Positions 39,719 through 60,967 of a stretch of DNA of 64,000 nt are shown piece by piece; position 1 is the first letter of the stretch, and every line of letters starts with the position of its first letter. A program made the translations under genes and the position numbers. Below the pieces are notes generated by a model. That model saw only the letters and a program-made list of their open reading frames with translations, made no database searches and was not told where the DNA came from. The stretch lies in the NCBI GenBank assembly GCA_964523905.1, contig CAZFYQ010000003.1, positions 28,976 through 92,975 on the forward strand. Direction: 5' to 3'. Source of the DNA: an uncultured Gammaproteobacteria bacterium. GTDB lineage: Bacteria > Patescibacteriota > Microgenomatia > Daviesbacterales > UBA10151.

Positions 39719-39868
39719 CGTTCAATCTTTCATTCTGACTTTACAGCCGCTACCGGAGTTTCGCCGGTTCGTGTCCGGCAATGCCGGACTCGTGGAGTGT
39801 ACCACCGATTAGGATTTTCACCTGACCCCGAAAGAACATTTTTATCTTATGCAGATAGTTCTGGTTTG

Positions 39869-46799: not shown

Positions 46800-48033
46800 T
46801 GGCAAATCTGTGGGCTTCGTCGCGGATTTTGGTGACCATTTTTAAGGCTTCAGAGTGTTTGGGAAGTTTTACAACACTACCATCCGGTGCATACAACCAT
46901 TCAAAACGTTTGGCTAATCCAAACATAGGAACGCTAACATTTCTCTCCTGAAAAACTTGATGAATGGCACTTACTTGGCCAGCTCCCCCATCAATGATAA
47001 ATAAATCAGGCATTGGCCATTCGGGGTGATTTAGCCTTCTTCGCATCATTTCCTGATGCATAGCGTAATCATTAGGCTTGCCAGTAATATGAATCTTAAA
47101 TTTACGATATTGTGATTTATCAATGTCGCCATGGGTTAAAACTACCATTGAACCCGTTGATTCATGACCTTGGATATTAGAGATGTCGTAACATTCAATC
47201 CGCTCCGGAAGTGTTGGCAAATTTAAAACTTTTTGCAGCTCTTCCAGGCCAATTTGATATTGATCCTGCAGGAAATTGGGATTCTCTAAATAGCTGCCGG
47301 TTCTATTAGTCTGCGTTAAATATTCAACTCCTGATAAAGTCTGTTTAATCCTGCCGGCTTGTTCAAAATCTTGATCTTTGGATGCCGCAACCATTTCCTT
47401 GGTTAATTCCTTAACCAGACTGTCTTTATCTCCATTTAGAAACTTAACTAGTCTGTTAATGATTTTTTTATAATCTTTTTGATTAATTACTCCTGCACAA
47501 GGACCCGGGCATTGACCTAAGTGATAGTAAAAACAAGGCTTTAGCTTCGCAAGGCGTTGCCTTGGAGGCTGAGAGCACCAAGGGAAAACACGGCGCAAGG
47601 ATTTTAAAGTTGACCGGACTGTTTGAGCAGAAGGAAAAGGCCCAAAATATTTCAAAGCTGTTTTTAAATCAGCTTTTCTGGCTGTTAACACCCTTGGAAA
47701 ATCTTCTTTAGTGATTAATATATATAAGTAGGATTTATCATCTTTTAAACTGACATTAAAAATTGGCCAATACTTTTTAATTAGATTAGCTTCCAGAATT
47801 AAAGCTTCCAACTCTGATTCCACAATAATGGTTTCTATACCAGCAATCTGCTCCACTAATGTCAATAACTTTACGTTCCCATTTGACAAGTGGGAAGCTG
47901 AAAAATATGACGCAACACGGTGATATAAATCAATAGCTTTACCAACATAAATTACTTTGTTAGCATGATCCTTATAAATATAAACTCCGGGTTTGTGCGG
48001 AACTTGTGACTTATCTATAAATTTTGGAAGCAT
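46753..48033 (-). CDS. uvrC: Excinuclease ABC subunit C (short form lacking C-terminal HhH)
   Basis: GIY-YIG N-terminus (KPGVYIYKD...IYVGKA), Cys-rich UvrC segment CFYYHLGQCPGPCAG, and an RNase H-like domain with YDISN. Confidence 0.8.
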   Translation of the reverse strand: MLPKFIDKSQVPHKPGVYIYKDHANKVIYVGKAIDLYHRVASYFSASHLSNGNVKLLTLVEQIAGIETIIVESELEALILEANLIKKYWPIFNVSLKDDKSYLYILITKEDFPRVLTARKADLKTALKYFGPFPSAQTVRSTLKSLRRVFPWCSQPPRQRLAKLKPCFYYHLGQCPGPCAGVINQKDYKKIINRLVKFLNGDKDSLVKELTKEMVAASKDQDFEQAGRIKQTLSGVEYLTQTNRTGSYLENPNFLQDQYQIGLEELQKVLNLPTLPERIECYDISNIQGHESTGSMVVLTHGDIDKSQYRKFKIHITGKPNDYAMHQEMMRRRLNHPEWPMPDLFIIDGGAGQVSAIHQVFQERNVSVPMFGLAKRFEWLYAPDGSVVKLPKHSEALKMVTKIRDEAHRFAITYHRKLHQKSVLGK

Positions 48034-48081
48034 AAGGAGAATTATACTTAAATTAAACTTAAGTCACAATCCAGTTAGCAA

Positions 48082-48756
48082 TTACTTTGCGGTAGGTTGA
48101 TCCCTGTGGAAGAACTTTTCGTGTGTTAATAATGCCATTGGCTGTTCTTTATACCGCAGTATTTCGTGACCGGAAGCAGGTTTTCCTTCAACAAGCCATT
48201 TTCTGGCCGGAGAAGAATCCCCAGGTTGCACATAAGTCATTGCTAGAACCAGTTGTTCATCTTGTATAGAAAAGGCACGATCAATTCCTCGCTTAATTTT
48301 TCCTTGTATAAGAATTTCTCCCCGTACATTAAGCTCAGCAGCGATAAAGTTATCACTACCATTTGTACCTGTTTTATAATCAGGTTCCCAAAGCAACAGC
48401 CAACGATAGGTTGGAGAAATACCAGTTTTAGGATCTCCCACCAATCCTTCGGCTGAAGTTGGATAGATTGGAATACGGTGGTTCACGGGCTCTTGATCAG
48501 AATGCTCTGCTAATCTTTGAGAGTGAGCTACTTCACGATCCATTAAAGCAACTTTTAACTCTCTAAGCACCTTAGCCGTTATTGTAAAACCAGCTAATTG
48601 CTCTAGCATACTGGCTTGAGCTTGCCAGACTTTCGGTGTAGTCTTATCTTGTGACTGAACTGTCCTGTTATACTCAAATGTTTCAGCAAATGCTCTAGAC
48701 TTATGGTCAATTTCCTGGTTTCTTGCTATTTCAGATGCTGCTTCAAGTATTGACAT
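48082..48756 (-). CDS. Hypothetical protein (cassette gene 3)
   Basis: ORF in a tight co-directional cluster; no motif recognised. Confidence 0.4.
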   Translation of the reverse strand: MSILEAASEIARNQEIDHKSRAFAETFEYNRTVQSQDKTTPKVWQAQASMLEQLAGFTITAKVLRELKVALMDREVAHSQRLAEHSDQEPVNHRIPIYPTSAEGLVGDPKTGISPTYRWLLLWEPDYKTGTNGSDNFIAAELNVRGEILIQGKIKRGIDRAFSIQDEQLVLAMTYVQPGDSSPARKWLVEGKPASGHEILRYKEQPMALLTHEKFFHRDQPTAK

Positions 48757-48817
48757 TTAAGTGGAATTTATATCTTTAAAGTATATTTGTCAAGAACAAT
48801 GAAACTTGGCAGCATAT

Positions 48818-49417
48818 TTAGCTTGTAAATGATTCCTGATAATGTTCCTGTTGTTCCTTAGGAGTTGGAAGCTGATAAAGAGACGCACCGTCAATTTCAT
48901 TATACAACTGTGTAAGCTGGTCAGGTTTTAATAGGTAATTACCAGGATAACTGGTTTTATATTTGGCGGCATTAAAAAAGTGAGGGACTTGGTAGGGATC
49001 CTTGATTTTTCCAGTCTTCCAATCCACTCTCTCATTTGGAACTAACTCTATTGGACCCCTGATTTGAGCTCCAGTAATATTTGCCACAGCCCACATTTCC
49101 ACCTCAGTCTTTGATCCTAAACCAATTCTTACTTTGTCAGAGTCGAATTTCTGACCTTGAGTTGATAGCTTCTCTGCAAGTCGTTCCCAGATTTTCTTAG
49201 TGGATGCTTCTATTTGCTGGGCTTCATTTTCATTGGGAATATATCTTCCAATACGAGGGTGATAAATTGGAACATTAATTTTCCAAAACCGCATATATGT
49301 CCAACGACTATCAAAATTAAAATGATGAGCAACCTCACTAGCCTGTTTTCCTGCTTCTGCATTCATAACCTGAAGAGTATACAGCGATTTTATTTTTTTA
49401 CAAGCCTGTAGGCTCAT
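48818..49417 (-). CDS. Hypothetical protein (cassette gene 2)
   Basis: ORF whose start overlaps the upstream gene by 20 nt; no motif recognised. Confidence 0.4.
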   Translation of the reverse strand: MSLQACKKIKSLYTLQVMNAEAGKQASEVAHHFNFDSRWTYMRFWKINVPIYHPRIGRYIPNENEAQQIEASTKKIWERLAEKLSTQGQKFDSDKVRIGLGSKTEVEMWAVANITGAQIRGPIELVPNERVDWKTGKIKDPYQVPHFFNAAKYKTSYPGNYLLKPDQLTQLYNEIDGASLYQLPTPKEQQEHYQESFTS

Positions 49418-50075
49418 TCCAATATGCTTCGTAATGAGGACTCACCGGAAGCTGCTTGTCGTAAGTATCTATCATTGCTTCGATCAGGTGATCATATATT
49501 CCATTTTTGACTTCTATGTATTTTTGACCAGGAGGAGTTCTTTTGCCTAGGGCTTCTGTAACCTCATCTTCAGTTGGTTGATAAAACAATGTTGCTTTCT
49601 TAATTCTGCTAAATGGAAAAATACCCTCGGGTAACCTAGAACTACTATCCCTATAAGGCCAATCTTTTCTACCTACACCAATTTCTGGATCAAATTCCAT
49701 TCTAAGGTGATCAAATATAGTACGACTAACCACGCCCGAAACATAACAAGGCAATTTACGCTCATCATTCCTACCCACTGTTGCTGTATAGAGTTTAGGA
49801 AAAGGGATTAAAATAGAATCAGCAAAAGATTCACCCTGCACATCACTCATTATTAAATTTCTTTTACCATCGACCTCCATACCAGCAACTATAGTCTCGC
49901 CCATTCTTAGGCCTACATAGTTCAATTGAGCGCTTAGAAAATCATATGTGGATACAGGTTTGGACTTTGGAGATATTGGTGTAGTTTCTGCTGGAGAATC
50001 TTTTAGAGAAAGGGCATTTCTTACTCTTCCCCAAAGTGCTTGAGTTGTTCTTTCTACTTGTGCACCGACTGCCAT
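49398..50075 (-). CDS. Hypothetical protein (cassette gene 1)
   Basis: ORF 24 nt downstream of the transglutaminase-like gene; no motif recognised. Confidence 0.4.
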   Translation of the reverse strand: MAVGAQVERTTQALWGRVRNALSLKDSPAETTPISPKSKPVSTYDFLSAQLNYVGLRMGETIVAGMEVDGKRNLIMSDVQGESFADSILIPFPKLYTATVGRNDERKLPCYVSGVVSRTIFDHLRMEFDPEIGVGRKDWPYRDSSSRLPEGIFPFSRIKKATLFYQPTEDEVTEALGKRTPPGQKYIEVKNGIYDHLIEAMIDTYDKQLPVSPHYEAYWNEPTGL

Positions 50076-50099
50076 ATTATTTACGAGTATATCACTGGA

Positions 50100-52028
50100 T
50101 TATTTTTTTACAATAGTCTTTTTGAAGCGGCGGCGGTAAATTAGGCCGCCTAAAATTACCAAATATGTGACTCCCATTAAAGAAATAATGCCAATAGCGA
50201 TTAAAGGCACGGTTTGGAAAATAAAGAAAGGCTGGATCGAGACATCTTTAGTAAACTTTTGTGAGCCTACTGATACCACAATTTGATCATTAAAGCGATC
50301 AAACAAAGAAGTAGTTCTGGTATTAAAATCAAAGCTGGCCGTGCCAAAAGGAGCTACTGGTCCTAGATTTTGAGTCCCACCCCCCAGAATCAGAAGTTTA
50401 GAGGAAGCGACGCTCAGTGAATCCGGCGGATAAACTGAATTACCAAGATTGGAAATTTTAACTGTTACTTTTCCCGGGAAACCAGCCCATATTGGGTTGG
50501 AATTTTCAATCTGCACATTAAGTTGTGGCTTACCTAAGAAATCATTATCAGACAAAGTAACTTTAACATCATGAGTATCCTGACCCGGATATTTATAGGA
50601 ACCAGCCGGAATCGGAGACACTGAAGATGTACCCTTAATGGCAAAGGTAAAGTGATTTAAGTCCAGTTTATTAAAATAATCCACACCTCCTGTGGTATTT
50701 TCCCAAGTTGGATCAACCATCACCCAACCTTTGGACTCATCCCAATATTCCGGCCAAGCATGTAAAACATCTTTAGAAAAAGACAACGGACGAAGCGTCG
50801 GATTAGAAGTATAGGCAAAACCATCCAGCTCCCGGGTGGGAATTCCAGCAGCACGGGCCAAAGCAATAAATAAATCCGTAAACTCCATACAAACTGCTTG
50901 AGTGGGATTGTTTAAGATAGCCACAGCTCCCAGACGTTCAATATTGTCATTAATCCGACCAGGATCATAAGTTAAGGTATTAACCACGTAATGATAAATT
51001 AAACGGGCTTTTTCAGTGGGATTTTGGGGCGGATTTGTTCCTAGGATTTCCGCTAATTTAGACTGAATTTGCGGATTATCCTTTTCCCAGTATTTATCGG
51101 TTTTGGTGTAGGCTTGCCTTAAATTATCAGGTAGCTCCGGATTTTTAACTTTACTATTGGTATAAAGCTTGGCTGAACCATTGACCTTAACATCTAATTT
51201 TTCTCCCCTGGTCAGCCGATACCAAGCCAAGTAGTTACCGTCATCATCTACTGTGACATTTTCCGGCTTAGGTTCGATTCTTGATGTAATCACATCCTGA
51301 TAAGCAGTGTCCGGAGGAAGTGCCACGCTGGTTAAAATTGGCACCAGGTTGGTGTTTTCTAAATGGTAAGTGAGGTCAAAGTCAAATAGTTGAAAAGTAC
51401 CAAAAGAAGCAGAGACACCGGATTGCTGCAGTTGGTCTTTAGAAAATGTCAAAAACATCCGGTCCCCGGAGACAGTTTGGGTTTTAGGAGTTGGGGCAAT
51501 CAAGCTGGGATCACCAAAAGATGTAGGCACGGAAATAGTCAGGTTATAACTTTCTAAATTACCGGAAGAAACCTTGGGAGCACGCACTTCCCAAACTTTA
51601 CCAGTACGTTCTGCAAAATCTTTGGATTTAAATTGCAAAGTCCAGGGTAAGATTTTATCTTTTCCCACCACCTGAGAATTAAACTTAACTGAAAGAGTGG
51701 TAGAAGTCCCGGTCTGCTGCTGTGAAACCGGCATTGGGCCAGTTGCATCTGAGGCTTTTAAATCATAAATCTGAGTGGCACCAATAATTAATTTAAATTC
51801 AGAAGCATAGTATTCGGAGGTTAAATTACGCAGATTAACTTTTTCAGTAACTGTAGTTACTCCATCAGTACCTACATCATAGGCCACATCATAGGCTGTG
51901 GAAAATTGCGAGGTAGTGGGGGCTGAAGTATCAGCAGCATATACATATGTAGGCAGCAGGCTGTAGGCAACAGGCATCAGTAGAACTAAGGCTAGGAATA
52001 CTGAGAGAAGTTTATGCAAAATCCGCAT
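50100..52028 (-). CDS. Transglutaminase-like cysteine protease superfamily protein, secreted with C-terminal TM anchor
   Basis: Signal peptide. Cys-His-Asp core: AVCMEFTDLFIALARAAGIPTR ... LHAWPEYW ... VMVDPTW. C-terminal hydrophobic helix followed by RRRFKKT. Confidence 0.75.
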   Translation of the reverse strand: MRILHKLLSVFLALVLLMPVAYSLLPTYVYAADTSAPTTSQFSTAYDVAYDVGTDGVTTVTEKVNLRNLTSEYYASEFKLIIGATQIYDLKASDATGPMPVSQQQTGTSTTLSVKFNSQVVGKDKILPWTLQFKSKDFAERTGKVWEVRAPKVSSGNLESYNLTISVPTSFGDPSLIAPTPKTQTVSGDRMFLTFSKDQLQQSGVSASFGTFQLFDFDLTYHLENTNLVPILTSVALPPDTAYQDVITSRIEPKPENVTVDDDGNYLAWYRLTRGEKLDVKVNGSAKLYTNSKVKNPELPDNLRQAYTKTDKYWEKDNPQIQSKLAEILGTNPPQNPTEKARLIYHYVVNTLTYDPGRINDNIERLGAVAILNNPTQAVCMEFTDLFIALARAAGIPTRELDGFAYTSNPTLRPLSFSKDVLHAWPEYWDESKGWVMVDPTWENTTGGVDYFNKLDLNHFTFAIKGTSSVSPIPAGSYKYPGQDTHDVKVTLSDNDFLGKPQLNVQIENSNPIWAGFPGKVTVKISNLGNSVYPPDSLSVASSKLLILGGGTQNLGPVAPFGTASFDFNTRTTSLFDRFNDQIVVSVGSQKFTKDVSIQPFFIFQTVPLIAIGIISLMGVTYLVILGGLIYRRRFKKTIVKK

Positions 52029-52122
52029 GAAGATATTGTAACAAACTCAAAATTTTATTGCATTTAGTTTGATATAGATAATGTGTCTTGTTATTTAAAA
52101 CTTTGAATATTATTATCAAACT

Positions 52123-52503
52123 ATGGCTGATGATACTATCAAGCAAATTTCTCAACTTTTAGATTCAAAAATCAAACCATTACATGGAGAAATAGCCAAA
52201 ATTCACCATGATTTATCTGATCTTAGGTCTTCTTATCTACAAAATAGTGTTGGAATAAAAAATATTAGAAATGATACCGCTAGAATTGATAGTGAGTTAG
52301 AAAATATCAGAGGATCACTTGAAAATCCCGATATTGGATTGAAAACGATAAATGAAAAGCTAGATCTTCAGGCTGAAATGTTAGATAATCACACTGAAAC
52401 TCTCAATGATATGGCTGTAAAAGTAGAAAAAAGACTAGGTTCGTTAGAAGACGGTGCAGATATTAAAGTTTCTCCTAAACTCCAATTAGTTGATATTGCC
52501 TAA
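52123..52503 (+). CDS. Hypothetical coiled-coil protein
   Basis: Heptad-rich ORF convergent with uvrA. Confidence 0.35.
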   Translation: MADDTIKQISQLLDSKIKPLHGEIAKIHHDLSDLRSSYLQNSVGIKNIRNDTARIDSELENIRGSLENPDIGLKTINEKLDLQAEMLDNHTETLNDMAVKVEKRLGSLEDGADIKVSPKLQLVDIA

Positions 52504-55439
52504 ATAATTTTGGCTAAGTAGTGGCCGGTGTGGGAGGTTTTGACTTTGGCAACTTGGGCAGGAGTGCCTTCGGCAATGACTTGACCGCCACCAGTACCAC
52601 CTTCCGGACCCAGATCAATAATCCAGTCAGTATTTTTAATTACATCCAAGTTATGTTCAATAATAATGACGGTGTTACCAAAATTAACTAGTTTTCTAAG
52701 GATCGCCAGTAGTCTTTCAATGTCTGCAAAGTGCAAACCAGTGGTTGGTTCATCTAAGATATAAATGGTTTGCCCGGTTTGTCTTTTGGACAGTTCACTG
52801 GATAATTTAATCCTCTGGGCTTCCCCACCTGACAAAGTCGGAGCCGGCTGACCCAAGCGGATATAACTCAAACCAACATCATTTAATACCTGGATTTTGT
52901 TTTTAATATTAGGGATATTTTCAAAGAATTTTAAGGCTTCTTCTACAGTCATTTCCAACACTTCTGAGATATTTTTATCCTTAAAATGAATGTCTAAAGC
53001 TTCACGGTTATAGCGTTTACCACCACAAGCCTCACAAGTGACATAAACATCCGGCAAAAACTGCATTTCTATTTTAATTTGACCCTCTCCTTCACAAACT
53101 TCACAGCGGCCTCCTTTAACATTAAAACTAAATCTACCCGGACCATATCCGCGGATTTTAGCCTCGGGTGATGCAGCAAATAATTCCCTAATAAAAGTGA
53201 AGGCGCCGGTATAAGTGGCTGGGTTAGACCTGGGGGTACGTCCGATGGGTGACTGATCAACCAAGATCACTTTGTCTATTTTGTCAGCGCCTTCCATTGA
53301 CTTAAACTGGCCGGGTTTTTGCCTAGAACCGTACACTTTTTGAGCCAAAGCCCGGTATAAAATATCATGTACTAAAGTGGATTTACCGGATCCAGATACT
53401 CCGGTTACTGCTACAAACTGTCCAAATGGAAAAGTGACTGTGACATTTTGTAAATTGTGCTCAGAAGCTCCGGTTAAAGTTAGTTTGCCCATATCTACGT
53501 ATGGCCGCTGCAGTTCTTCAGAGATTTTGACAGTTCTTTTGCCAGATAGATATTGGCCGGTTAAAGAATCAGGATTTTTTTTGATCTCATCAGGAGTACC
53601 AATGGCCACAATTCTACCGCCATGTTCCCCTGCTCCTGGTCCAATTTCTACCATTAAATCAGCTGCTTCCATGGTTTCTGAATCATGCTCATTAACCACT
53701 ACGGTATTACCTAAATCTCGCAGGCGTTTTAGAGTCTCAATCAAACGAGTGTTATCCCTTTGATGTAAGCCAATTGATGGTTCATCCAAAACATAGAGCA
53801 CTCCGGATAAACCTGAGCCGATTTGAGAGGCTAAACGGATTCTTTGAGCTTCACCACCAGCTAGAGTCATGGAAGCCCGGTCAATGGTTAGATAATCCAA
53901 ACCAACATCAACCAAAAACTTTAGACGCGAGATTATCTCTTTCAAAATAGATTTAGCAATTTGTTTTTCTCTTTCAGATAGTAATGGATCCAGTTTACTA
54001 AACCAATTCAAAGCCTCGTTAATAGCCTGAGTAGTAACCTCGGAGATATTTAAGCCATCTATTGTTATTCCTAACGCTTCCGGTTTCAGTCTGGCTCCAT
54101 GACACTCGGGACAAATCTCGGTTAACATGTATTTTTCGATCTCGGCTTTAACAAAATCCGATTCAGTTTCTTTATATCTTCGCTCCAAATACGTAATAAT
54201 ACCTTCAAAATTACTGTCAAAATGAGTCCAACGACCAAAACGATTTTGCCCTTGTACTTTAAATACTTCACCGCCAGTCCCATTTAATAGAATCTGTCGG
54301 GCTTTTTCTGACAACTGACCCAGGCGGGTACTTAAATCAAAGTCATATTCTTTACCAACAGCTTCAATTAAACGGGTAAACCAGGTTTCACTGCTACCCA
54401 GTTTGCTCCAAGGTAAGATTCCGCCTTCGGCAATCGACAGGATTGGATTTAGCACTAAACTGGAATCTATTTTTAACAAGGTACCCAAGCCAGTACACTT
54501 GGTACAGGCCCCGTGAGGTGAATTAAAAGAAAAGGTCCGCGGTTCGATTTCCGGCAAGGAAATATTGTCTACCGGACAAGCAAAACGCTCGGAATAAAGA
54601 TGATCCTCCATTTTTTTAGGATTGGTGGGAAATTCCAGGGATTTGTCCATTACATCTGCCACAACTACTGATCCCTCCCCTAATTTTAAGGCTGTTTCAA
54701 TACTTTGAGTTAAACGGGAAATAATATTAGGATCTTTGGTACTCTTTTTATCCAAAACCAGCCGGTCAATCACAGCATCAATAGTATGTTTGTTGGTTTT
54801 AATTAATACTAAGTCATCACTTAAATCACTAACCTGCCCATCAACGCGCACCTTAGAGAAACCTTTTTTTCGAAGGTCCTCAAATACTGATGAATACTCA
54901 CCTTTACGGTCTTTGACAACCGGAGCTAAGATCATTATCCTTCTCCCTGCGTTGCCTGTTGCCTGTTGCCTGTTGCCTGTAATCTGTTCCACTATCTGCT
55001 GCACTGACATTTGAGTGATTTCCCGGCCACAAATTGGACAATGTGGGTGACCAACACGGGCGAATAACAACCTCATATAGTCATAAATTTCCGTGGTAGT
55101 TCCCACAGTGGAACGCGGATTATGGGAAGCGGATTTTTGATCAATAGAAATAGCCGGTGATAAACCTTCAATATTATCTACATCAGGCTTGTCCATTACT
55201 CCCAAAAACTGCCGGGCATAGGCTGAAAGGGATTCTACATAACGGCGTTGGCCCTCTGCATAAAGAGTATCAAAAGATAAGGAGGATTTGCCTGATCCGG
55301 AAATTCCAGTAATCACCACTAATTTGTCCTTTGGAATTTCCAAATCAATGTTTTTGAGGTTATGTTGTCTGGCCCCTCGTATGATAATTTTATCTGCTGC
55401 CATAGTTTTCCCGAAGAATGAAGAGTCTATTATAACCAA
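52500..55439 (-). CDS. uvrA: Excinuclease ABC subunit A
   Basis: Two ABC modules ([10 protein letters not shown] / [10 protein letters not shown] Walker A, LSGGE signatures), Zn-finger Cys pairs, and [13 protein letters not shown]. Confidence 0.95.
54952..54979. repeat. Perfect heptanucleotide tandem repeat (ttgcctg x4) inside the uvrA ORF
   Basis: Four exact units followed by a degenerate fifth (taatctg). They encode the loop insert [10 protein letters not shown] of UvrA. Confidence 0.8.
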
Positions 55440-55474
55440 CTTAGCAAGATTATGGAAGACCCTATTAGACTAAT

Positions 55475-55503
55475 TTGACATCTAAATATAACTATGAGAT
55501 TAT
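55475..55503 (+). promoter_or_regulatory. Sigma70-like promoter TTGACA-17-GATTAT abutting the ATG at 55511 (leaderless-type)
   Basis: Sequence match. The predicted transcription start coincides with the start codon. Confidence 0.4.
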
Positions 55504-55510
55504 TTGGCCA

Positions 55511-55828
55511 ATGAGACGATATGATGGGGAACCAAATCTAGGCAATGAATTAATAAAATATGCCGCAAGAAAATTTGAAGGATCTCCGCTGAGTGAGTCC
55601 CTAAGAAGGGTATGGGAACAAATACCGGCTTATCCGATAAAAGAATCTGAACCTATTACTGCCGCTGCGGCACTGGCAACTAGCATGTTAGTTTCTATCC
55701 CCGGAATGATTGCAATAAATGAAGGCATAAAGCATGAAAACTACGCAGAAACTGCATTAGGACTAGCTTGGGTGGCATTACAATATGCAATTATTCGGGT
55801 AAGCGTCGGCCGTGGTATCGGAAGATAA
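55511..55828 (+). CDS. Hypothetical small protein (105 aa)
   Basis: ORF. The track begins it at a TTG (55475) that is the -35 box. Confidence 0.35.
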   Translation: MRRYDGEPNLGNELIKYAARKFEGSPLSESLRRVWEQIPAYPIKESEPITAAAALATSMLVSIPGMIAINEGIKHENYAETALGLAWVALQYAIIRVSVGRGIGR

Positions 55829-55837
55829 ATTAATTAG

Positions 55838-55882
55838 TTAATTCTTTAATTTGATCTCTGATTCTGGCTGCTTCTTCAAAGA
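55838..55882. repeat. Direct repeat copy A of the uvrB 3' end (~45 nt)
   Basis: About 87% identical to 57931-57975. On the minus strand it encodes FEEAARIRDQIKELTN-stop, i.e. the UvrB C-terminal UVR motif, preceded in frame by a stop. Confidence 0.8.
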
Positions 55883-55906
55883 ATTATACCGTGGTATAAT
55901 TGGATT

Positions 55907-56107
55907 ATGAATAATGCTTCATATATAGCCATTCAAAAGAAATATCCAGGTAAATTAGTAGCCATTTCTAAGCAAGAAGGAAAAGTAGTAGCTTCTGGTA
56001 AATCCTCCGAGGTTCTGGAAAAAGAACTTAAAAGGAAAAAACTCAATCCCAGTGAATATCTTTTCCTTGGACCAATTGAGCGATATAATCAGATTAGTGT
56101 CTACTAA
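55907..56107 (+). CDS. Small hypothetical protein (66 aa), possibly DUF5678-like
   Basis: Motif YPGKLVAISKQEGKVVASGKSSEVLEKELKRK. A TGgTATAAT extended -10 sits immediately upstream, partly inside repeat A. Confidence 0.4.
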   Translation: MNNASYIAIQKKYPGKLVAISKQEGKVVASGKSSEVLEKELKRKKLNPSEYLFLGPIERYNQISVY

Positions 56108-56266
56108 AATCGTTTTTCCCTATGGGTCAAGAGAAATTCACCGTTCGCTGTTACTTTGTTAAAAGTAATACCCTTCCTCTTCTAGGAAGAATTGATATTT
56201 GGAATAAGTTTAATTTGTTTTTTGATAATAAAAAAGAGCAGGTGGTTTTCGAAAAGTTTTAAAGAC

Positions 56267-56310
56267 TTAATTCTTTAATTTGGTCACGGATTCTTCGGCT
56301 TCTCCAAAGT
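56267..56310. repeat. Direct repeat copy B of the uvrB 3' end (more diverged)
   Basis: ttaattctttaatttggtcacggattcttcggcttctccaaagt is about 80% identical to the uvrB terminus. Confidence 0.7.
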
Positions 56311-56338
56311 TGATTTTCTAGGCTAAATGTCCTATAAT
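56310..56338 (+). promoter_or_regulatory. Near-consensus sigma70 promoter TTGATT-17-TATAAT
   Basis: The -10 ends 6 nt before the ATG at 56345, so a leaderless transcript is predicted. Confidence 0.5.
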
Positions 56339-56344
56339 ATACAG

Positions 56345-57403
56345 ATGCAGTCACCTGACCGACAACCAACATATACAAGACGCGAAGCCATGGGCTTAAT
56401 TGGAGGGCTATTTATAGTAGCTAGTGGAATCGAAAGTGCATGTGGTCCTACTCCTTCATCTGAACCCATTCGAAGTAAATTCCCTACTGCTATTACAGCA
56501 CCGAAGGATATTGTAAGTACTATTACTGAACTTGAAAATAAACAGTCTAAAACTCAACTCCCTAGTATAGCAACCCTTACTGAACATAGCCGACTAGTGG
56601 CAGAATATTATACTCAGGCAACAGGCTCAGAAATTAATGCTTCAAGTCTTGCATCGAGAATCCATTTAGTAACGCAGGCGGAATTTAGAAGTTTGGTAGT
56701 AAAGGCAAATTCGCCCCATGTTGATGCAAGTGATGTTGATTCCGTACCGATGATGACCGATATAGCCCAGCCTGATCGACCAATTTATTCCAATATCCAA
56801 CATAAAGGTTACCTTTCCTCTAGCTTAGTTGATATACGATGGGTTAGCCCACAGGCAGATGCTGTAACTAAAATTAAAAGGACACCCATGGAATTATTTA
56901 GAGTAGCCTTACTTCATGAATTTATTCATTCAGATTTAATCACTAAATCTATCTCCCAGATGCTTAATTTAGAGAATGGCCGATTCGAGACAAAACAAGC
57001 TAATGGTTTTCAAGTAGAAGGCACATTAACTGACAGCAAGGAGCCTAAAACAATTTTTCTAGAAATTGAGGAATCTAGTGCTGTAACTCTAAGCGGCTTT
57101 TTAAACCGACCATTCACTGATGGTAAATTTATAGTACCTGACTTTGGAATTCCAGAAATCATGGGAGGTACTGTAATGCTATACAAGCTAATCACCGAAA
57201 ATGGATTGGATTATTTAGATATTGCCAGGCTGCATCGATCATCTGAAGTATTAGAAACTATGGACTTTTTAAGATCCTCACTACCAGCATTAAAAAACCC
57301 AGTACCCTCTACAAACTGGGAAATGTTAGGTGAACTAAGTAAGGGTAGCCCAAAAGGATTTAATAATTTATTTGTAGAACCTGTATTAACTAACGGTCTA
57401 TAA
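56345..57403 (+). CDS. Secreted/lipoprotein-like putative zinc metallopeptidase (HExxH)
   Basis: RR-containing hydrophobic N-terminus TRREAMGLIGGLFIVASGIESACG and HExxH in ALLHEFIHSDL. The track start at 56327 falls inside the promoter. Confidence 0.5.
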   Translation: MQSPDRQPTYTRREAMGLIGGLFIVASGIESACGPTPSSEPIRSKFPTAITAPKDIVSTITELENKQSKTQLPSIATLTEHSRLVAEYYTQATGSEINASSLASRIHLVTQAEFRSLVVKANSPHVDASDVDSVPMMTDIAQPDRPIYSNIQHKGYLSSSLVDIRWVSPQADAVTKIKRTPMELFRVALLHEFIHSDLITKSISQMLNLENGRFETKQANGFQVEGTLTDSKEPKTIFLEIEESSAVTLSGFLNRPFTDGKFIVPDFGIPEIMGGTVMLYKLITENGLDYLDIARLHRSSEVLETMDFLRSSLPALKNPVPSTNWEMLGELSKGSPKGFNNLFVEPVLTNGL

Positions 57404-57451
57404 TATAGCGATCAACGAATTACTCTAAAACCAGCTAGAAAACTTTAAGGA

Positions 57452-57562
57452 TTATTTACGTGTCTTGCTGCCGTAGCGCATAGTAGCATAGGCCACAATC
57501 GCAATTGCTAAGGCTAAAATTGCAAGTATTAAATAAAAAATGTAGAGTCCATCAATAATCAT
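57452..57562 (-). CDS. Small hydrophobic peptide (36 aa)
   Basis: MIIDGLYIFYLILAILALAIAIVAYATMRYGSKTRK: a single TM helix with a basic tail. Below the ORF-track cutoff. Confidence 0.35.
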   Translation of the reverse strand: MIIDGLYIFYLILAILALAIAIVAYATMRYGSKTRK

Positions 57563-57587
57563 ATGAACCGTATTTATAAAGTGCTAA

Positions 57588-57695
57588 TTAGGATTTCTTT
57601 TGGGAAACTAGGTAAGCTAATACGATCAAAATCATTACCACACCACCTGCAATATAAAAGAGTAAAATTCCATTAGTTGCGTTATCGATATTCAT
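57588..57695 (-). CDS. Small hydrophobic peptide (35 aa), paralog of the 36-aa peptide
   Basis: MNIDNATNGILLFYIAGGVVMILIVLAYLVSQKKS. Same architecture: MxID, TM helix, basic tail. Confidence 0.35.
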   Translation of the reverse strand: MNIDNATNGILLFYIAGGVVMILIVLAYLVSQKKS

Positions 57696-57698
57696 AAT

Positions 57699-57902
57699 TT
57701 ATAGTTTTCCTTTCTCAGCAAATAAAGCTGAAAAATATACTGCCATAATAGTTAGTAACAAACCTAATGATATCACAAACCAACTATTGTTAACAATGGA
57801 ACCTGTAAAAAAAGGTAGAATCAAGGAAGCTAGAAAAACTGCTGAAAATCCAGAAAAAATCGAAGAAAAAGCCTTATAAGAGGACTTAGTAAATTTGAAC
57901 AT
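57699..57902 (-). CDS. Small membrane protein (67 aa, two TM helices)
   Basis: ORF immediately downstream of uvrB on the same strand. Confidence 0.4.
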   Translation of the reverse strand: MFKFTKSSYKAFSSIFSGFSAVFLASLILPFFTGSIVNNSWFVISLGLLLTIMAVYFSALFAEKGKL

Positions 57903-57922
57903 AATTTTATTATAGCAAATGA

Positions 57923-59893
57923 CTAAATACTTAATTCTTTAATCTGATCTCGGATTCTGGCGGCTTCTTCAAAGTCTAAAACTGCTGCGGCTTCTTTCAT
58001 TTCGGTTTCTAATAGTTTTATCATTTTCTGACGTTCGTCTGCCGGGATATCCTCCGGTTTTAAAATGTCTTTGCCTAATTTTTCCTGGACCTCTTCCAAT
58101 TGTTCTATTAAGCGATCACGCAAAGGCTTAATGATTGATTTAGGAGTAATGTGATGTTCCTTATTATATTGTTCCTGATACTCGCGTCGTCTGGTAACCT
58201 CATCAATAGCTGCTTTCATGGATTTGGTAACTGTATCTGCATACATAATCACATGACCATGTACATGCCGGGCTGCCCGGCCCATGGTCTGTACTAAGGA
58301 AGTTCTGGATCTTAGAAAGCCTTCTTTATCCGCATCAATAATAGCCACTAAAGATACTTCCGGCAAATCCAAACCCTCCCGAAGCAGATTAATTCCCACC
58401 AACACATCAAATTCTCCCAGTCTTAATGAATTTAAAATATCCGATCTTTCCAGGGTAGCCACATCAGAATGTAGATATTGCACTTTCAAGCCTTTTTCTT
58501 TTAGATAATCCGTTAAATCCTCGGCCATTCTTTTGGTTAGGGTCGTTACCAGCACCCGTTCACCTTGTTTAACTCGTTTCTCAATCTCTAGCTGTAAATC
58601 AGCAATCTGACCTTGAGTTGGACGAACATCAACTTTCGGATCCAATAGCCCGGTTGGTCTAATTAACTGCTCTGCAATATTGCTTCCAGCTAAGCTCAAT
58701 TCATATTCATCCGGAGTTGCAGAAGTATAAATTGCCTGATGAACCCGTCTTTGAAATTCATCAAACTTTAACGGCCGGTTATCCAAAGCAGAAGGCAGCC
58801 TAAACCCAAATTCTATTAAGGTTTCCTTGCGGGCCCGGTCCCCGTTATACATCCCCCTAATTTGTGGCAAAGTAATGTGAGACTCATCAATAATTACTAA
58901 ATAATCTTTCGGAAAGTAATTTAATAAAGAATATGGCGCAGAACCAGGCTCACGGCCATCAAAATAGCGGGAATAATTTTCAATGCCATTACAATAACCA
59001 TACTGACGAATCATTTCTAAGTCAAAATTAGTTCTTTGTTCCAACCTTTGAGCTTCTACCAGCTTACCCTGGCTTTTCAGTTCCTTTAACCTAGCTGCTA
59101 AGTCTTCTTCAATTTGTTTTATTCCCGGCACAATTCTTTGTTCCGGTGTAATGTAGTGCTTGGCTGGATAAATTACCTGAGTACCTTGTAAATCCTCAGT
59201 ATTACCGGTTAAAGGGTCTAGCTTAGCAACTTTTTCAATCTTGTCACCTAGAAACTGTAATCTGTAGCCCGTGTCTAAATATGAAGCAAAAATATCAATT
59301 GTTTCACCGCGGACCCGATATGCACCTCGTTTGAAATCAATATCGTTCCTTTCATAATACATTTTCTGGAGAATTTTCATGATTTGTTGAAACGTGGCTT
59401 TCATACCCTGGCCTACTTCTAAAATAGCCTGGCCATATTCAATTGGAGAACCCAAGTTATAAATTGCGGAAACTGACGCTACTACGACTGTATCCTTGCG
59501 GGTTAATAAGGAAGCTGTGGTGGAAAGCCGCAGCTTTTCGATCTCTTCATTAATAGAGGCATCCTTTTCTATATAGGTGTCAGATGAAGGAAGATATGCT
59601 TCTGGCTGGTAATAATCATAATAAGAAACAAAATATTCCACGGCATTATCCGGAAAGAACATTTTAAATTCCTGAGTAAGTTGTGCAGCCAGAGTCTTAT
59701 TGTGGGAAATAATCAGAGTCGGCCGCTGCACAGCTTGGATCACATTAGCCATGGTAAAAGTCTTACCAGAACCAGTTACTCCCAGCAAAACCTGGTGTTC
59801 ATCACCTTTATTTAACCCTTTAACCAGCTTTTCAATAGCCTGTGGCTGATCACCAGTTGGCTTAAATCCGGAAATAATCTTAAAATTTGGCAT
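57923..59893 (-). CDS. uvrB: Excinuclease ABC subunit B
   Basis: Helicase motifs GVTGSGKT and DESH, the beta-hairpin region, and the C-terminal UVR motif FEEAARIRDQIKEL. Confidence 0.95.
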   Translation of the reverse strand: MPNFKIISGFKPTGDQPQAIEKLVKGLNKGDEHQVLLGVTGSGKTFTMANVIQAVQRPTLIISHNKTLAAQLTQEFKMFFPDNAVEYFVSYYDYYQPEAYLPSSDTYIEKDASINEEIEKLRLSTTASLLTRKDTVVVASVSAIYNLGSPIEYGQAILEVGQGMKATFQQIMKILQKMYYERNDIDFKRGAYRVRGETIDIFASYLDTGYRLQFLGDKIEKVAKLDPLTGNTEDLQGTQVIYPAKHYITPEQRIVPGIKQIEEDLAARLKELKSQGKLVEAQRLEQRTNFDLEMIRQYGYCNGIENYSRYFDGREPGSAPYSLLNYFPKDYLVIIDESHITLPQIRGMYNGDRARKETLIEFGFRLPSALDNRPLKFDEFQRRVHQAIYTSATPDEYELSLAGSNIAEQLIRPTGLLDPKVDVRPTQGQIADLQLEIEKRVKQGERVLVTTLTKRMAEDLTDYLKEKGLKVQYLHSDVATLERSDILNSLRLGEFDVLVGINLLREGLDLPEVSLVAIIDADKEGFLRSRTSLVQTMGRAARHVHGHVIMYADTVTKSMKAAIDEVTRRREYQEQYNKEHHITPKSIIKPLRDRLIEQLEEVQEKLGKDILKPEDIPADERQKMIKLLETEMKEAAAVLDFEEAARIRDQIKELSI

Positions 59894-60207: not shown

Positions 60208-60967
60208 AACCTGGGAGGTGGACTACGTTGACACCTAGGGAAAATTTGAATATTGTTATATTATGCCCGGAAGAAAGATTCCTCTAATTACTGGTGAGAC
60301 ATACCATGTATTTAACAGAGGTATTGATAGAAGACCCACCTTTACCAATAAAAGGGAATTAGACAGGGCTCAAAAGACCATCAGTTTTTACAATTTTTTT
60401 GAACCACCGGTTAGTTTATCAAAATTCCTAAGACTTGAGACAAAGAAGCAAAATGAAATTCTTGATGCTTTAGCCCAAAACAAGAAATTAGTTGAGATTT
60501 TTTGTTATTGCTTAATGCCTAATCATTTTCATCTATTAGTAAGACAAGAGCGAGACAAAGGAATTGCTAAATTTCTAAGCAATTTACAAAATAGTTACAC
60601 GCGATACTTTAATGTAAAACACTCCAGAGATGGTTCACTTTTTCTGGACCAATTTAAAGCCGTGCGGATAGAAACTGACGAGCAGCTCTTGCACGTATCC
60701 CGCTATATTCACTTAAATCCCCATACCGGTTTTGTGGTGAAAACTCTGGATGAACTTGAAAATTACCCTTGGTCCTCATTTCCAGATTACCTACAAAATA
60801 ATGACCAGGTTGTGGATACTGAATTCATACTAGGTTTATTTAAGAATGCTAAACAATATAAGGAGTATGTATTCGATCAAGCTGATTATCAGCGAGAATT
60901 AAGCTTAATAAAACATTTAGTTTTGGAATAATCCCTAGGTTGCCTATCTGGATAACCTCCCAGGTGG
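60208..60967 (+). mobile_element. RAYT/IS200-like unit bounded by ~35-bp imperfect terminal inverted repeats built from ACCT/AGGT hairpins
   Basis: Left end aACCTgggAGGTgg...ACACCTAGGG (60208-60240). Right end CCCTAGGT...aACCTcccAGGTgg (60933-60967), beginning 2 nt after the stop codon. Confidence 0.55.
60263..60931 (+). CDS. HUH Y1 tyrosine transposase, RAYT/IS200-like (copy 2)
   Basis: YHVFNRG, HuH CLMPNHFHLLV, SRYIHLNP, and C-terminal YPWSSF. About 45% identical to copy 1. Confidence 0.75.
   Translation: MPGRKIPLITGETYHVFNRGIDRRPTFTNKRELDRAQKTISFYNFFEPPVSLSKFLRLETKKQNEILDALAQNKKLVEIFCYCLMPNHFHLLVRQERDKGIAKFLSNLQNSYTRYFNVKHSRDGSLFLDQFKAVRIETDEQLLHVSRYIHLNPHTGFVVKTLDELENYPWSSFPDYLQNNDQVVDTEFILGLFKNAKQYKEYVFDQADYQRELSLIKHLVLE

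What the first reader, a model, noticed from the sequence alone, without database searches (positions are those of the whole stretch)
57452..57902. Operon of three tiny hydrophobic peptides, two paralogous at 35-36 aa, immediately downstream of uvrB
The two short peptides share MxID, a single TM helix, and a basic C-terminus (MIIDGLYIFYLILAILALAIAIVAYATMRYGSKTRK and MNIDNATNGILLFYIAGGVVMILIVLAYLVSQKKS). A 67-aa two-TM protein precedes them. This layout resembles type I toxin, membrane-depolarising or bacteriocin-like peptides. They sit inside the repeat-bounded islet, which adds to the suspicion of an accessory or addiction function. They are too small for the ORF track and would be missed by standard annotation.
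Basis: partly seen in the sequence, partly recalled or inferred. Interest (0 to 1): 0.5.

Follow-up and report, generated by a model that had tools for sequence, protein, structure and literature searches.

The report
Conserved hairpin-plus-peptide small membrane protein operon
The three tiny ORFs after uvrB are real genes of an undescribed, conserved module (a 67-aa two-helix membrane protein always followed by one to three ~30-37-aa single-helix peptides) from uncultured groundwater bacteria; nothing tested here supports a type I toxin or bacteriocin, and its function is unknown.

Summary
ORF1 (67 aa) and ORF2 (35 aa) are conserved in frame in a ~75%-identical groundwater relative, with dN/dS about 0.09 and changes concentrated at third codon positions. 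A profile search places ORF1 in an unannotated family of about 48 clusters of 63-72-aa helical hairpins. In all 11 distinct loci examined, the hairpin gene is followed at -4 to +3 nt by a 31-42-aa peptide, usually M[NT]FDNQTIGLLLFY + TM + KKK, and sometimes by two or three such peptides. ORF3 is absent from the nearest relative. I found no Pfam, NCBIfam, PHROG, PADLOC, Rfam, phage or plasmid match, no conserved antisense promoter, and no conserved neighbours. ORF1 has the genome's usual leaderless start (TGcTATAAT-N6-ATG). The module lies between direct repeats of the last ~50 nt of uvrB, in both lineages. Best reading: a translationally coupled small membrane-protein complex that was inserted long ago and has been inherited vertically since. 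A membrane toxin/immunity pair cannot be excluded.

The parts
57909..57917 (-). Extended -10 promoter TGcTATAAT, 6 nt before the ORF1 ATG (leaderless start)
   Evidence: Read from the sequence. It is conserved as TGaTATAAT-N6-ATG in L083. The same TATAAT-N6/7-ATG arrangement precedes uvrB, uvrC and 11 other ORFs of at least 66 aa in the window. That transcription starts here is inferred.
57699..57902 (-). ORF1: 67-aa two-TM helical hairpin, probably N-in/C-in; member of the undescribed hairpin family (consensus ..KLTKSxYRALS....NFSAVFLASLVIP.F..D....PVLLLGL..T.....LSL.FAEKGKL)
   Evidence: dN/dS 0.088 against L083. 49 proteins at E<=1e-3 in 1.84e9 representatives, nearly all 63-72 aa and matched end to end. 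AF2 pLDDT 88.
57705..57716 (-). Purine-rich SD-like stretch GAGAAAGGAAAA, formed by the conserved E-K-G-K codons of ORF1 upstream of ORF2
   Evidence: Equivalent GAGAAGGG/GAGAGAGG stretches lie 5-6 nt before the peptide ATG in other loci. Its role as a ribosome-binding site is inferred.
57588..57695 (-). ORF2: 35-aa single-pass peptide of the long-N-tail type (MNIDNATNGILLFY + TM + QKKS), probably N-out/C-in
   Evidence: 83% identical in L083, dN/dS 0.084, differences by codon position 8/2/16. Homologues follow the hairpin gene directly in L086, L087, L091, L095, L099 and L100.
57452..57562 (-). ORF3: 36-aa single-pass peptide of the short-N-tail type (MIIDGLYIFY + TM + basic tail); specific to the window lineage, expression signals unclear
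   Evidence: Absent from L083. Homologous to the L097 peptide MINIEGLYIFY... (score 66, p<1e-4). Family HMM 10.9 bits. Peptides of this subtype are under purifying selection between L097 and L101 (pN/pS 0.25). No SD and no canonical -10 lie upstream.
57924..57974 (-). Repeat copy A: the functional 3' end of uvrB (...FEEAARIRDQIKELSI*)
56260..56310 (-). Repeat copy B: fossil uvrB 3' end with a 1-nt deletion; its stop codon lies at the same alignment column as in uvrB (...KELSL*)
   Evidence: 83% identical to copy A
55831..55881 (-). Repeat copy C: fossil uvrB 3' end (FEEAARIRDQIKELTN*), preceded by an in-frame stop
   Evidence: 85-90% identical to copy A
55470..57587 (.). Segment present in the window but absent from the relative L083. 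It contains ORF3, a 352-aa HExxH protein (56345-57403 +), copy B, a 46-aa ORF, a DUF5678 ORF (55907-56107 +), copy C and a 117-aa ORF (55475-55828 +).
   Evidence: BLASTN of the window against L083: homology stops at the ORF2 stop and resumes about 30 nt upstream of the uvrA ORF.
57923..59893 (-). uvrB (context; the upstream gene and the apparent target of the insertion)
   Evidence: (Pfam domains of the L083 orthologue)

Best explanation
ORF1, ORF2 and ORF3 form an operon for very small integral-membrane proteins of a conserved, previously undescribed two-component module. The first component is a ~67-aa helical hairpin with basic N- and C-termini and a short outer loop, so probably N-in/C-in. 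The second is one or more ~30-37-aa single-pass peptides with a short acidic/polar N-tail, one TM helix and a Lys/Arg C-tail, so probably N-out/C-in.

The operon is probably transcribed from its own extended -10 promoter as a leaderless mRNA starting at the ORF1 ATG. ORF2 is translated just downstream, using a purine-rich site built from ORF1's conserved EKGK codons. In other genomes the two genes overlap as ATGA.

The obligatory adjacency and coupling suggest that hairpin and peptide assemble into a membrane-embedded hetero-oligomer of three TM helices per unit. This could be a small channel, or a stabilising or regulatory subunit that serves the host cell. ORF3 is a second peptide paralogue of the short-N-tail subtype and could be an alternative or additional partner.

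The module entered the uvrB-uvrA spacer before the window and L083 lineages split, by an event that duplicated the last ~50 nt of uvrB. It has been inherited vertically under purifying selection since then.

Shown: coding status, family membership, the invariant gene pairing, the promoter architecture and the flanking repeats.

Inferred: topology, complex formation, a host-beneficial rather than toxic role, and the assignment of the organisms to CPR/Patescibacteria.
For: - **ORFs and junctions:**
- **Conservation against the relative L083/84/85:** in-frame conservation of ORF1 and ORF2; dN/dS ORF1 0.088, ORF2 0.084, uvrB 0.036; third-position bias 35 of 61 and 16 of 26 differences. The ORF1-ORF2 gap differs by 1 nt between the two lineages, yet both frames stay open.
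- **Family size:** 49 proteins at E<=1e-3 and 13 at E<=1e-10, nearly all 63-72 aa and matched end to end. A wider profile search gave 20 more or overlapping members, none named and none with a Pfam domain.
- **Pairing:** 11 distinct loci (window, L083, L086, L087, L091, L092, L095, L097, L099, L100, L101) all carry a 31-42-aa single-TM ORF starting -4 to +3 nt from the hairpin stop. L086 has three such peptides; L097 and L101 have two. L099 and L101 are close relatives of L087 and L097, so about 8-9 of these contexts are independent.
- **Independent selection test:** in the L097/L101 pair, pN/pS is 0.25-0.30 for the hairpin and both peptides.
- **ORF3 membership:**
- **Fold:** hairpin with pLDDT 88.
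- **Gene start:** leaderless architecture typical of this genome.
- **Positional stability:** window and L083 share the uvrB site; L087 and L099 share the downstream 89-aa gene.
- **Mobile collections:** absent from the viral contig, phage and plasmid collections searched.
Against: - No function can be read from homology. There were no hits in Pfam, NCBIfam, PHROGs, PADLOC, PDB sequences or Foldseek.
- Complex formation rests only on gene adjacency and coupling. No multimer model or co-variation analysis could be run.
- The genomic context varies between distant members. It includes an antisense insertion between rpsJ and rplC and a target-duplicating insertion at uvrB. This would also fit a selfish cassette.
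- ORF3 lacks a recognisable SD or promoter and is missing from the closest relative, so it may not be expressed.
- Only two lineages share the uvrB location, so the purifying-selection test at this locus rests on one pairwise comparison near synonymous saturation (pS 0.65-0.71).
Confidence: 0.55

Rival explanations
1. Membrane toxin plus membrane antitoxin or immunity protein, acting as an addiction-type selfish cassette. The single-pass peptide(s) would be pore-forming or depolarising toxins. The co-translated hairpin would neutralise them within the membrane. The cassette would persist and spread by inserting at the 3' ends of housekeeping genes.
For: - The peptides have the size, hydrophobicity and basic tail of many small membrane toxins.
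- The order hairpin first, peptide second, with translational coupling, mirrors the usual antitoxin-toxin order.
- The module is autonomous, with no conserved neighbours, and sits directly at or overlapping the ends of uvrB, serS, a glyoxalase gene and a PHO4 gene, and inside the S10 operon.
- At uvrB it is flanked by a ~50-nt target duplication.
- The peptide gene occurs in tandem copies.
Against: - No match to any toxin, antitoxin or defence model.
- No phage, plasmid or viral-contig copies.
- No flanking repeats at the three other loci examined (L086, L087, L091), and no shared terminal inverted repeats at any locus.
- The position is stable between moderately diverged genomes, and synonymous divergence is comparable to that of uvrB (dS 1.5-2.3 vs 2.5), which indicates long vertical inheritance.
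- The most conserved part of the peptide is a short polar N-tail motif (FDNQT.G), not an amphipathic or pore-like feature.
Confidence: 0.2
2. Classical type I toxin-antitoxin locus: a hydrophobic toxin peptide repressed by an antisense RNA.
For: Small hydrophobic ORFs with basic tails lie next to a DNA-repair gene. One promoter-like site lies on the opposite strand at 57712-57741.
Against: - Promoter-like sites are no more frequent than in shuffled sequence (6 found vs 4.8 +/- 2.2 expected).
- The antisense site is not conserved in L083: its -10 equivalent reads TACACA (read).
- No Rfam hit even at E<=10.
- Synonymous sites are not unusually conserved.
- The peptides are always coupled to a protein partner.
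- No homology to known type I toxin families in Pfam or NCBIfam.
Confidence: 0.04
3. Bacteriocin-like secreted peptides (ORF2/ORF3), with ORF1 as the immunity protein.
For: Tandem paralogous small peptides next to a small multi-TM protein recall two-peptide or leaderless bacteriocin loci with small immunity proteins. This comparison rests on general knowledge, not on a test made here.
Against: - No double-glycine or other leader.
- Net charge is about +1 and GRAVY is 1.1-1.2, which fits a membrane anchor rather than a soluble cationic amphipathic peptide.
- None of the 11 loci has an ABC exporter, C39 peptidase or modification enzyme nearby.
- No Pfam or NCBIfam bacteriocin match.
Confidence: 0.03
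4. ORF3 alone is a decaying, unexpressed relic of a second module, while ORF1 and ORF2 are functional.
For: - ORF3 is absent from L083 and sits at the edge of the window-specific 2.1-kb segment.
- It has no SD and no TATAAT-N6 start.
- Its subtype normally pairs with a different hairpin subtype (IAQ[IV][FL]FAS..., as in P0049 and P0060), which is not present here.
Against: - The ORF is intact, with the full motif GLYIFY, a TM segment and a basic tail.
- Gene callers predict it on the Logan contigs.
- Tandem extra peptides are normal in this family.
Confidence: 0.35

Closest known systems
Type I toxins (Hok, Ldr, Fst, TisB, Ibs/ShoB, TxpA/BsrG families)
   Same: Peptides under 60 aa with one TM helix and a charged tail, encoded on the chromosome next to housekeeping genes and sometimes in tandem copies.
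   Different: No antisense RNA or conserved antisense promoter was found, and there is no sequence homology. The peptide gene is always translationally coupled to a conserved two-TM protein gene. A short polar N-tail motif is the most conserved feature.
Small accessory subunits of membrane complexes (e.g. KdpF, CydX, AcrZ, MgtS; the divisome-associated YmgF and Blr of E. coli). Recalled from general knowledge.
   Same: Proteins of 30-70 aa with one or two TM helices that function only as parts of membrane complexes and are under purifying selection. YmgF is a ~72-aa two-TM protein and Blr a ~41-aa one-TM protein.
   Different: No homology. Those proteins are encoded within or near the operon of their large partner, or are known to bind one. 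This module has no conserved neighbour, and any larger partner is unknown.
Pf3-coat-type membrane proteins (short acidic N-tail out, one TM, basic C-tail in; YidC-dependent insertion). Recalled from general knowledge.
   Same: The charge distribution and length class of ORF2 and ORF3 predict the same N-out/C-in topology without a signal peptide.
   Different: No phage context, no viral-contig or PHROG hit, and the peptides are shorter (31-37 aa against 44 aa).
Genomic islets integrated at the 3' end of a gene with att-like direct repeats (tRNA or gene-3'-end integrative elements, cis-mobilisable elements)
   Same: The insert is flanked by direct repeats of the last ~50 nt of the target gene. 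The repeats have a sharp left boundary and the stop codon lies at the same alignment column in every copy. The target reading frame is restored. The three tandem copies suggest accretion.
   Different: The units are tiny (0.39-1.7 kb) and no integrase lies inside them. Only an IS200-like Y1 transposase gene lies 2.3 kb away, outside the repeats. No empty site and no excised form was observed.

Membership tests
Type I toxin-antitoxin system | Small (<60 aa) hydrophobic toxin ORF with a TM helix | tested here: met
   ORF2 is 35 aa and ORF3 is 36 aa. The maximum Kyte-Doolittle score over 15 residues is 2.8-3.1, and both have basic C-termini.
Type I toxin-antitoxin system | Antisense or divergent small-RNA antitoxin gene with its own promoter | tested here: not met
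   No Rfam family matched at gathering score or at E<=10. Promoter-like sites are not enriched. The one antisense site is not conserved in L083. Synonymous divergence is not reduced. No transcriptome was available, so an unrecognised RNA cannot be excluded.
Type I toxin-antitoxin system | Homology to a described type I toxin family | tested here: not met
   No significant Pfam or NCBIfam hit for ORF1, ORF2, ORF3 or the family members.
Type I toxin-antitoxin system | Toxicity or membrane depolarisation on overexpression | not testable with these tools
   Needs controlled expression of ORF2 and ORF3, with and without ORF1.
Class II, two-peptide or leaderless bacteriocin locus | Leader peptide, or a cationic amphipathic leaderless peptide | tested here: not met
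   No GG leader. Net charge is about +1 and GRAVY is 1.1-1.2, with a continuous hydrophobic core.
Class II, two-peptide or leaderless bacteriocin locus | Linked exporter, processing protease or dedicated immunity genes | tested here: not met
   None of the 11 loci has such neighbours.
Holin/antiholin | Prophage or endolysin context, or a match to a holin family | tested here: not met
   No significant PHROG match (weak hits for ORF3 only, E 0.08-0.09) and no Pfam holin hit. Neighbours are housekeeping genes. No viral contig or phage record matched.
   ORF1 seeded the profile, so its own score is circular. Independent members score E from 6.8e-14 to 3e-4 over their full length.
   Seen in 11 of 11 distinct loci, including the window, where the gap is 3 nt.
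Integrative element / att-flanked islet at a gene 3' end | Direct repeats of the target gene's 3' end flanking the insert, with the target ORF restored | tested here: met
   Three copies in the window (57924-57974, 56260-56310, 55831-55881) and two in L083 (about 4735-4785 and 5120-5172). They share a left boundary and the stop codon falls at the same alignment column.
Integrative element / att-flanked islet at a gene 3' end | Site-specific recombinase encoded in the element | tested here: not met
   The ORFs between the repeats have no recombinase domain. The only transposase-like gene, an IS200-like Y1 at 60263-60931, lies outside the repeats.
Integrative element / att-flanked islet at a gene 3' end | An empty target site in related genomes | tested here: inconclusive
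   L083 lacks the 2.1-kb distal part but still has ORF1 and ORF2 between repeats. No relative with an uninterrupted uvrB-uvrA spacer was recovered. The genome-contig scan returned only distant UvrB relatives of at most 60% identity.

The most novel reading that the evidence does not exclude
The hairpin-plus-peptide module is a new kind of miniature selfish cassette in ultra-small groundwater bacteria. It would be an all-protein, all-membrane toxin/immunity pair that inserts at the 3' ends of essential or housekeeping genes (uvrB, serS, a phosphate transporter gene, the S10 operon). At uvrB it would do so by a recombination that duplicates and restores the last ~50 nt of the target, building a small multi-cassette array between uvrB and uvrA.
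Probability: 0.12. Interest if true: 0.7.

Novelty: new variant of a known kind. Interest (0 to 1): 0.4.

Why it matters
Small membrane proteins are under-annotated, and few have known partners. This module is a clean, conserved two-component case: a two-TM hairpin that is always followed by one to three single-TM peptides. It comes from organisms that are probably genome-reduced (CPR-like), where long retention under purifying selection implies a useful role. It gives a defined pair to test for complex formation, channel activity or toxicity. It adds a family that Pfam and NCBIfam lack. The duplicated uvrB 3' ends mark a possible insertion hot spot whose mechanism could be studied. The practical value is modest until a function is shown.

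Tried and rejected
- **Exact look-up of the window's UvrB:** not on record.
- **Direct search with the 35-aa peptide:** A concatenated ORF2+ORF3 query found nothing.
- **Metagenome scan with the two-sequence ORF1 alignment:** recovered only another contig of the L083 species.
- **Viral-contig scans with the ORF1 and ORF2 alignments:** no relatives. The 38-sequence alignment was too diverse for pattern search.
- **Family libraries:** Pfam, NCBIfam, PHROGs and PADLOC gave no significant hit.
- **Structure:** the Foldseek search of the PDB gave only generic TM hairpins at E>=1.2 (GtrB/ArnC C-terminal hairpins, small OST subunits), which I reject as uninformative. The PDB profile search found nothing.
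- **Terminator:** none in the ORF3 / 352-aa-ORF convergent spacer (z=0.67).
- **Mobile-element signature:** no shared terminal inverted repeats around modules in nine loci, and no target-gene duplication at L086, L087 or L091.
- **Orthology of the fossil repeats:** pairwise identities between lineages (74-85%) were not discriminating.
- **Recurring 89-aa neighbour:** it is shared only by the related loci L087 and L099. The 89-aa ORF of L097 is unrelated.
- **Retropepsin remnant:** the idea that the 46-aa ORF at 56122-56262 is one got no Pfam support and was dropped.
- **Cluster look-ups:** gave no names or taxonomy.
- **Literature searches for the run accessions:** nothing for the SRR runs. 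PRJEB22302 appears in one preprint that used public groundwater metagenomes chosen because CPR bacteria are prevalent in them.
Full report
**1. What is in the sequence**

On the minus strand, uvrB (57923-59893) ends with TAG at 57923-57925. Three short ORFs follow:
- ORF1, 57699-57902, 67 aa: MFKFTKSSYKAFSSIFSGFSAVFLASLILPFFTGSIVNNSWFVISLGLLLTIMAVYFSALFAEKGKL.
- ORF2, 57588-57695, 35 aa: MNIDNATNGILLFYIAGGVVMILIVLAYLVSQKKS.
- ORF3, 57452-57562, 36 aa: MIIDGLYIFYLILAILALAIAIVAYATMRYGSKTRK.

The gaps are 20 nt (uvrB to ORF1), 3 nt (ORF1 to ORF2) and 25 nt (ORF2 to ORF3). ORF3 converges, across 48 nt, on a plus-strand ORF that ends at 57403. Hydropathy gives two hydrophobic segments in ORF1 and one each in ORF2 and ORF3. 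AlphaFold2 with a 20-sequence alignment models ORF1 as a confident helical hairpin, H6-33 and H41-64, mean pLDDT 88.

**2. Are they genes?**

ORF1 is already a called protein in public data (P0001, NCBI and Logan). It had one 72%-identical homologue in the word-indexed search (P0002). Two Logan contigs are 100% identical to the window, and gene callers there predicted all three ORFs.

P0002 comes from groundwater metagenome contigs (L083, L084 and later L085) that are about 75% identical in DNA. They have the gene order uvrB, ORF1 homologue, ORF2 homologue (MNFNNATQGTLLFYIAAGVVMILIVLAYLLSQKKS), uvrA.

A Nei-Gojobori comparison of the window with L083 gives:

| Gene | pS | pN | dN/dS | Differences by codon position |
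|---|---|---|---|---|
| ORF1 | 0.71 | 0.17 | 0.088 | 15/11/35 |
| ORF2 | 0.65 | 0.12 | 0.084 | 8/2/16 |
| uvrB | 0.72 | 0.086 | 0.036 | 108/35/307 |

The ORF1-ORF2 spacer differs by one nucleotide between the lineages, yet both frames remain open. ORF1 and ORF2 are thus protein-coding and under purifying selection. Synonymous sites are about as diverged as in uvrB, which argues against an overlapping constrained RNA.

**3. A family, and an invariant partner**

A profile of the two ORF1 sequences, run against 1.84 billion cluster representatives, found 49 proteins at E<=1e-3 and 13 at E<=1e-10. One of them is a 2361-aa repetitive protein, matched only over 34-residue stretches, that I regard as spurious. 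Nearly all the others are 63-72 aa and matched end to end.

Their alignment shows a clear consensus: basic N-terminus KLTKSxYRALS, TM1 NFSAVFLASLVIP, a short loop containing D, TM2 around LLLGL..T, and the C-terminus FAEKGKL. A second search with the 38-sequence profile returned 20 members, none with a name or a Pfam domain.

I looked up the genomic context of ten members. In every distinct locus the hairpin gene is followed directly by a tiny single-TM ORF. The two genes usually overlap as ATGA; otherwise the gap is 2-3 nt.

| Locus | Position of the module | Peptide(s) after the hairpin |
|---|---|---|
| L086 | after a CvpA-CAP gene | MTFNDPTIGLLTFY... (37 aa), MNWDNQTVGTALFY... (34 aa), a 30-aa third copy |
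| L087-90 | overlapping the serS 3' end | MTFDNQTIGLLLFY... (34 aa) |
| L099 | related to L087 | MNFDTQTVGLLLFY... (34 aa) |
| L091 | divergent from a Vut_1 gene | MTFDNQTIGLLLFY... (34 aa) |
| L092-94 | abutting a glyoxalase gene | a divergent 37-aa peptide |
| L095/96 | between rpsJ and rplC, on the opposite strand | MNFDNQTIGLLLFY... (33 aa) |
| L100 | 1 nt after a PHO4 transporter gene | MTFDNTTIGLLLFY... (42 aa) |
| L097/98 and L101 | divergent from an upstream gene on the opposite strand (an 89-aa ORF; a tRNA_bind gene) | MIN[IV]EG[LF]YI[FS]Y... (31/33 aa), then MNI..IRTITFILLG... (28 aa) |

No neighbouring gene recurs across independent loci, so the module is self-contained.

In the independent pair L097/L101, the hairpin and both peptides have pN/pS of 0.25-0.30 with third-position bias. 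The conserved EKGK codons at the hairpin's end form a purine-rich stretch (GAGAAAGG...) just upstream of the peptide ATG. This looks like its ribosome-binding site (the function is inferred).

**4. ORF3**

ORF3 is absent from L083. Homology between the window and L083 stops exactly at the ORF2 stop and resumes about 30 nt upstream of the uvrA ORF.

- A direct ORF2-ORF3 comparison is not significant (p=0.057; 0.27 when the architecture is preserved).
- Against an HMM of seven ORF2-type peptides, ORF3 scores 10.9 bits (p=0.001 and 0.0125 against shuffles). The third L086 peptide scores 11.2 bits.
- These two are the only outliers among 179 natural hydrophobic small ORFs from 1.1 Mb; the next best scores 5.9 bits.
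- ORF3 (MIIDGLYIFYL...) matches the L097 peptide MINIEGLYIFYM... with score 66 (p<1e-4 under both shuffles). That peptide in turn matches ORF2 (p=7e-4 and 7e-3).

Whether ORF3 is expressed is open. It has no SD-like sequence and no TATAAT-N6 start. Elsewhere its subtype accompanies a different hairpin subtype.

**5. Expression signals**

ORF1 is preceded by TGcTATAAT-N6-ATG (57909-57917). L083 has TGaTATAAT-N6-ATG. Of the 64 TATAAT hexamers in the window, 16 lie 4-9 nt before an ATG. Thirteen of those open ORFs of at least 66 aa, including uvrB, uvrC, the 352-aa ORF and the DUF5678 ORF. Leaderless starts therefore appear to be the norm in this genome, and ORF1 has the standard gene start.

The generic promoter scan found no excess of sites. 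The one antisense candidate (plus strand, 57712-57741) reads TACACA at its -10 in L083, so it is not conserved. No terminator-like structure follows ORF3.

**6. The repeat-bounded islet**

The last ~50 nt of uvrB (copy A, 57924-57974...FEEAARIRDQIKELSI*) recur as fossils at 56260-56310 (copy B) and 55831-55881 (copy C).
- The copies share a sharp left boundary at CTTTGAAG.
- A stop codon lies at the same alignment column in each copy (ELSL*, ELTN*).
- L083 has the same feature. A fossil (DFEEAARIRDQIKERSL*) starts immediately after the ORF2 stop.

So ORF1 and ORF2 lie inside an insertion that duplicated and restored the uvrB terminus, and this predates the split of the two lineages.

The window carries a further 2.1 kb that L083 lacks:
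- ORF3;
- a 352-aa protein with an HEFIH motif and an RR-containing N-terminus;
- copy B;
- a 46-aa ORF and a DUF5678 ORF;
- copy C;
- a 117-aa ORF.

No recombinase lies between the repeats. An IS200-like Y1 transposase gene (60263-60931) lies on the other side of uvrB. The other module loci examined show no target duplication (L086, L087, L091) and no common terminal repeats. The signature looks like att-type site-specific integration with tandem accretion, but the mechanism is not established.

**7. What it is not**

- No Pfam, NCBIfam, PHROG or PADLOC family matched.
- No Rfam family matched in the region at E<=10. At gathering scores the window has only an FMN riboswitch and three tRNAs.
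- There was no PDB sequence or fold match of any significance.
- No phage, plasmid or viral-contig relative was found.
- Type I toxin-antitoxin membership fails on the antisense RNA, on homology and on the stand-alone criterion.
- Bacteriocin membership fails on leader or charge properties and on linked export or immunity genes.
- Holin membership fails on context.

**8. Best explanation and rivals**

The invariant adjacency and translational coupling of a hairpin with one to three single-pass peptides point to a membrane-embedded hetero-oligomer. So do the conservation concentrated in the peptide's short outer N-tail and in polar or small residues of the hairpin's helices (N, S, P, G, T), the long vertical retention, and the genome-standard promoter. 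By the positive-inside rule, the hairpin would be N-in/C-in and the peptide N-out/C-in. Its role (channel, stabiliser or regulator of another membrane machine) cannot be derived from the sequence. I give this reading a confidence of about 0.55.

The main rival, at about 0.2, is an all-protein membrane toxin/immunity cassette. That would explain the autonomy of the module, its habit of sitting at the very ends of housekeeping genes, the insertion into the S10 operon and the duplicated uvrB end. Classical type I TA (about 0.04) and bacteriocin (about 0.03) readings are poorly supported. Separately, ORF3 may be an unexpressed relic (about 0.35).

The organisms are uncultured groundwater bacteria. 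Assigning them to the CPR/Patescibacteria is an inference. It rests on sample types (one of the source projects appears among CPR-rich groundwater datasets), on the many unannotated ORFs, and on the lack of any close genome relative.

**9. Novelty and score**

The module is not described in the libraries or in the literature I could search. It is a new small-membrane-protein family with a distinctive two-component layout, but no function has been shown. I score interest at 0.4. The most novel reading left open is a miniature selfish membrane toxin/immunity cassette that targets gene 3' ends. I give it a probability of about 0.12, and it would merit an interest of about 0.7 if true.

Noticed in passing
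window 57924-57974, 56260-56310, 55831-55881; L083 about 4735-4785 and 5120-5172: The last ~50 nt of uvrB occur three times in the window and twice in the relative. The copies share a left boundary and the stop codon falls at the same alignment column. This looks like att-type duplication from repeated insertion at the uvrB 3' end, but no integrase lies between the copies.
   Followed up: partly
window 56345-57403 (+): A 352-aa ORF specific to the window lineage. It has an HEFIH (HExxH) motif and an RR-containing hydrophobic N-terminus, so it may be a secreted metalloprotease. It has no significant Pfam, PHROG or PADLOC match and no phage match. Its true start is the second ATG, behind TATAAT-N6.
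   Followed up: partly
window 55907-56107 (+) and 56122-56262 (+): A DUF5678 ORF (Pfam E=4e-5, just above the gathering score) with a leaderless TGgTATAAT-N6-ATG start, followed by a 46-aa ORF of unknown nature. Both lie between repeat copies C and B.
   Followed up: partly
window 55475-55828 (+): A 117-aa ORF with no family match. It lies directly against repeat copy C, on the uvrA side, and replaces about 14 nt of the L083 spacer. It is therefore another lineage-specific insertion next to a repeat boundary.
   Followed up: no
window 60263-60931 (+): An IS200-like Y1 transposase gene (PF01797, E=6e-10) just upstream of uvrB. It is absent from the corresponding position in L083.
   Followed up: no
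whole window (e.g. 59893, 48033, 36252, 26267, 26233, 18244): TATAAT lies 6-7 nt before the ATG of many ORFs, including uvrB and uvrC, so leaderless mRNAs seem to be the usual gene-start architecture in this genome.
   Followed up: partly
L095 2821-3131; L096 706-1016: In another lineage the hairpin-plus-peptide module sits between rpsJ (S10) and rplC (L3) on the opposite strand. It interrupts the normally tight S10 operon.
   Followed up: no
L087 6391-6660; L099 508-777: An 89-aa two-TM protein (54% identical between the two loci) follows the module in these related genomes. A perfect 14+14-nt palindrome lies at L087 6356-6383.
   Followed up: partly
window 46753-59893; L083 2815-12231: uvrB, uvrA, a transglutaminase-like gene and uvrC are clustered and syntenic between the window and L083. 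They differ by indels: L083 has a methyltransferase gene where the window has a 126-aa ORF at 52123-52503.
   Followed up: no
window 39718-39839 (-): An FMN riboswitch (77.9 bits) lies directly upstream of the ORF at 38819-39718.
   Followed up: no
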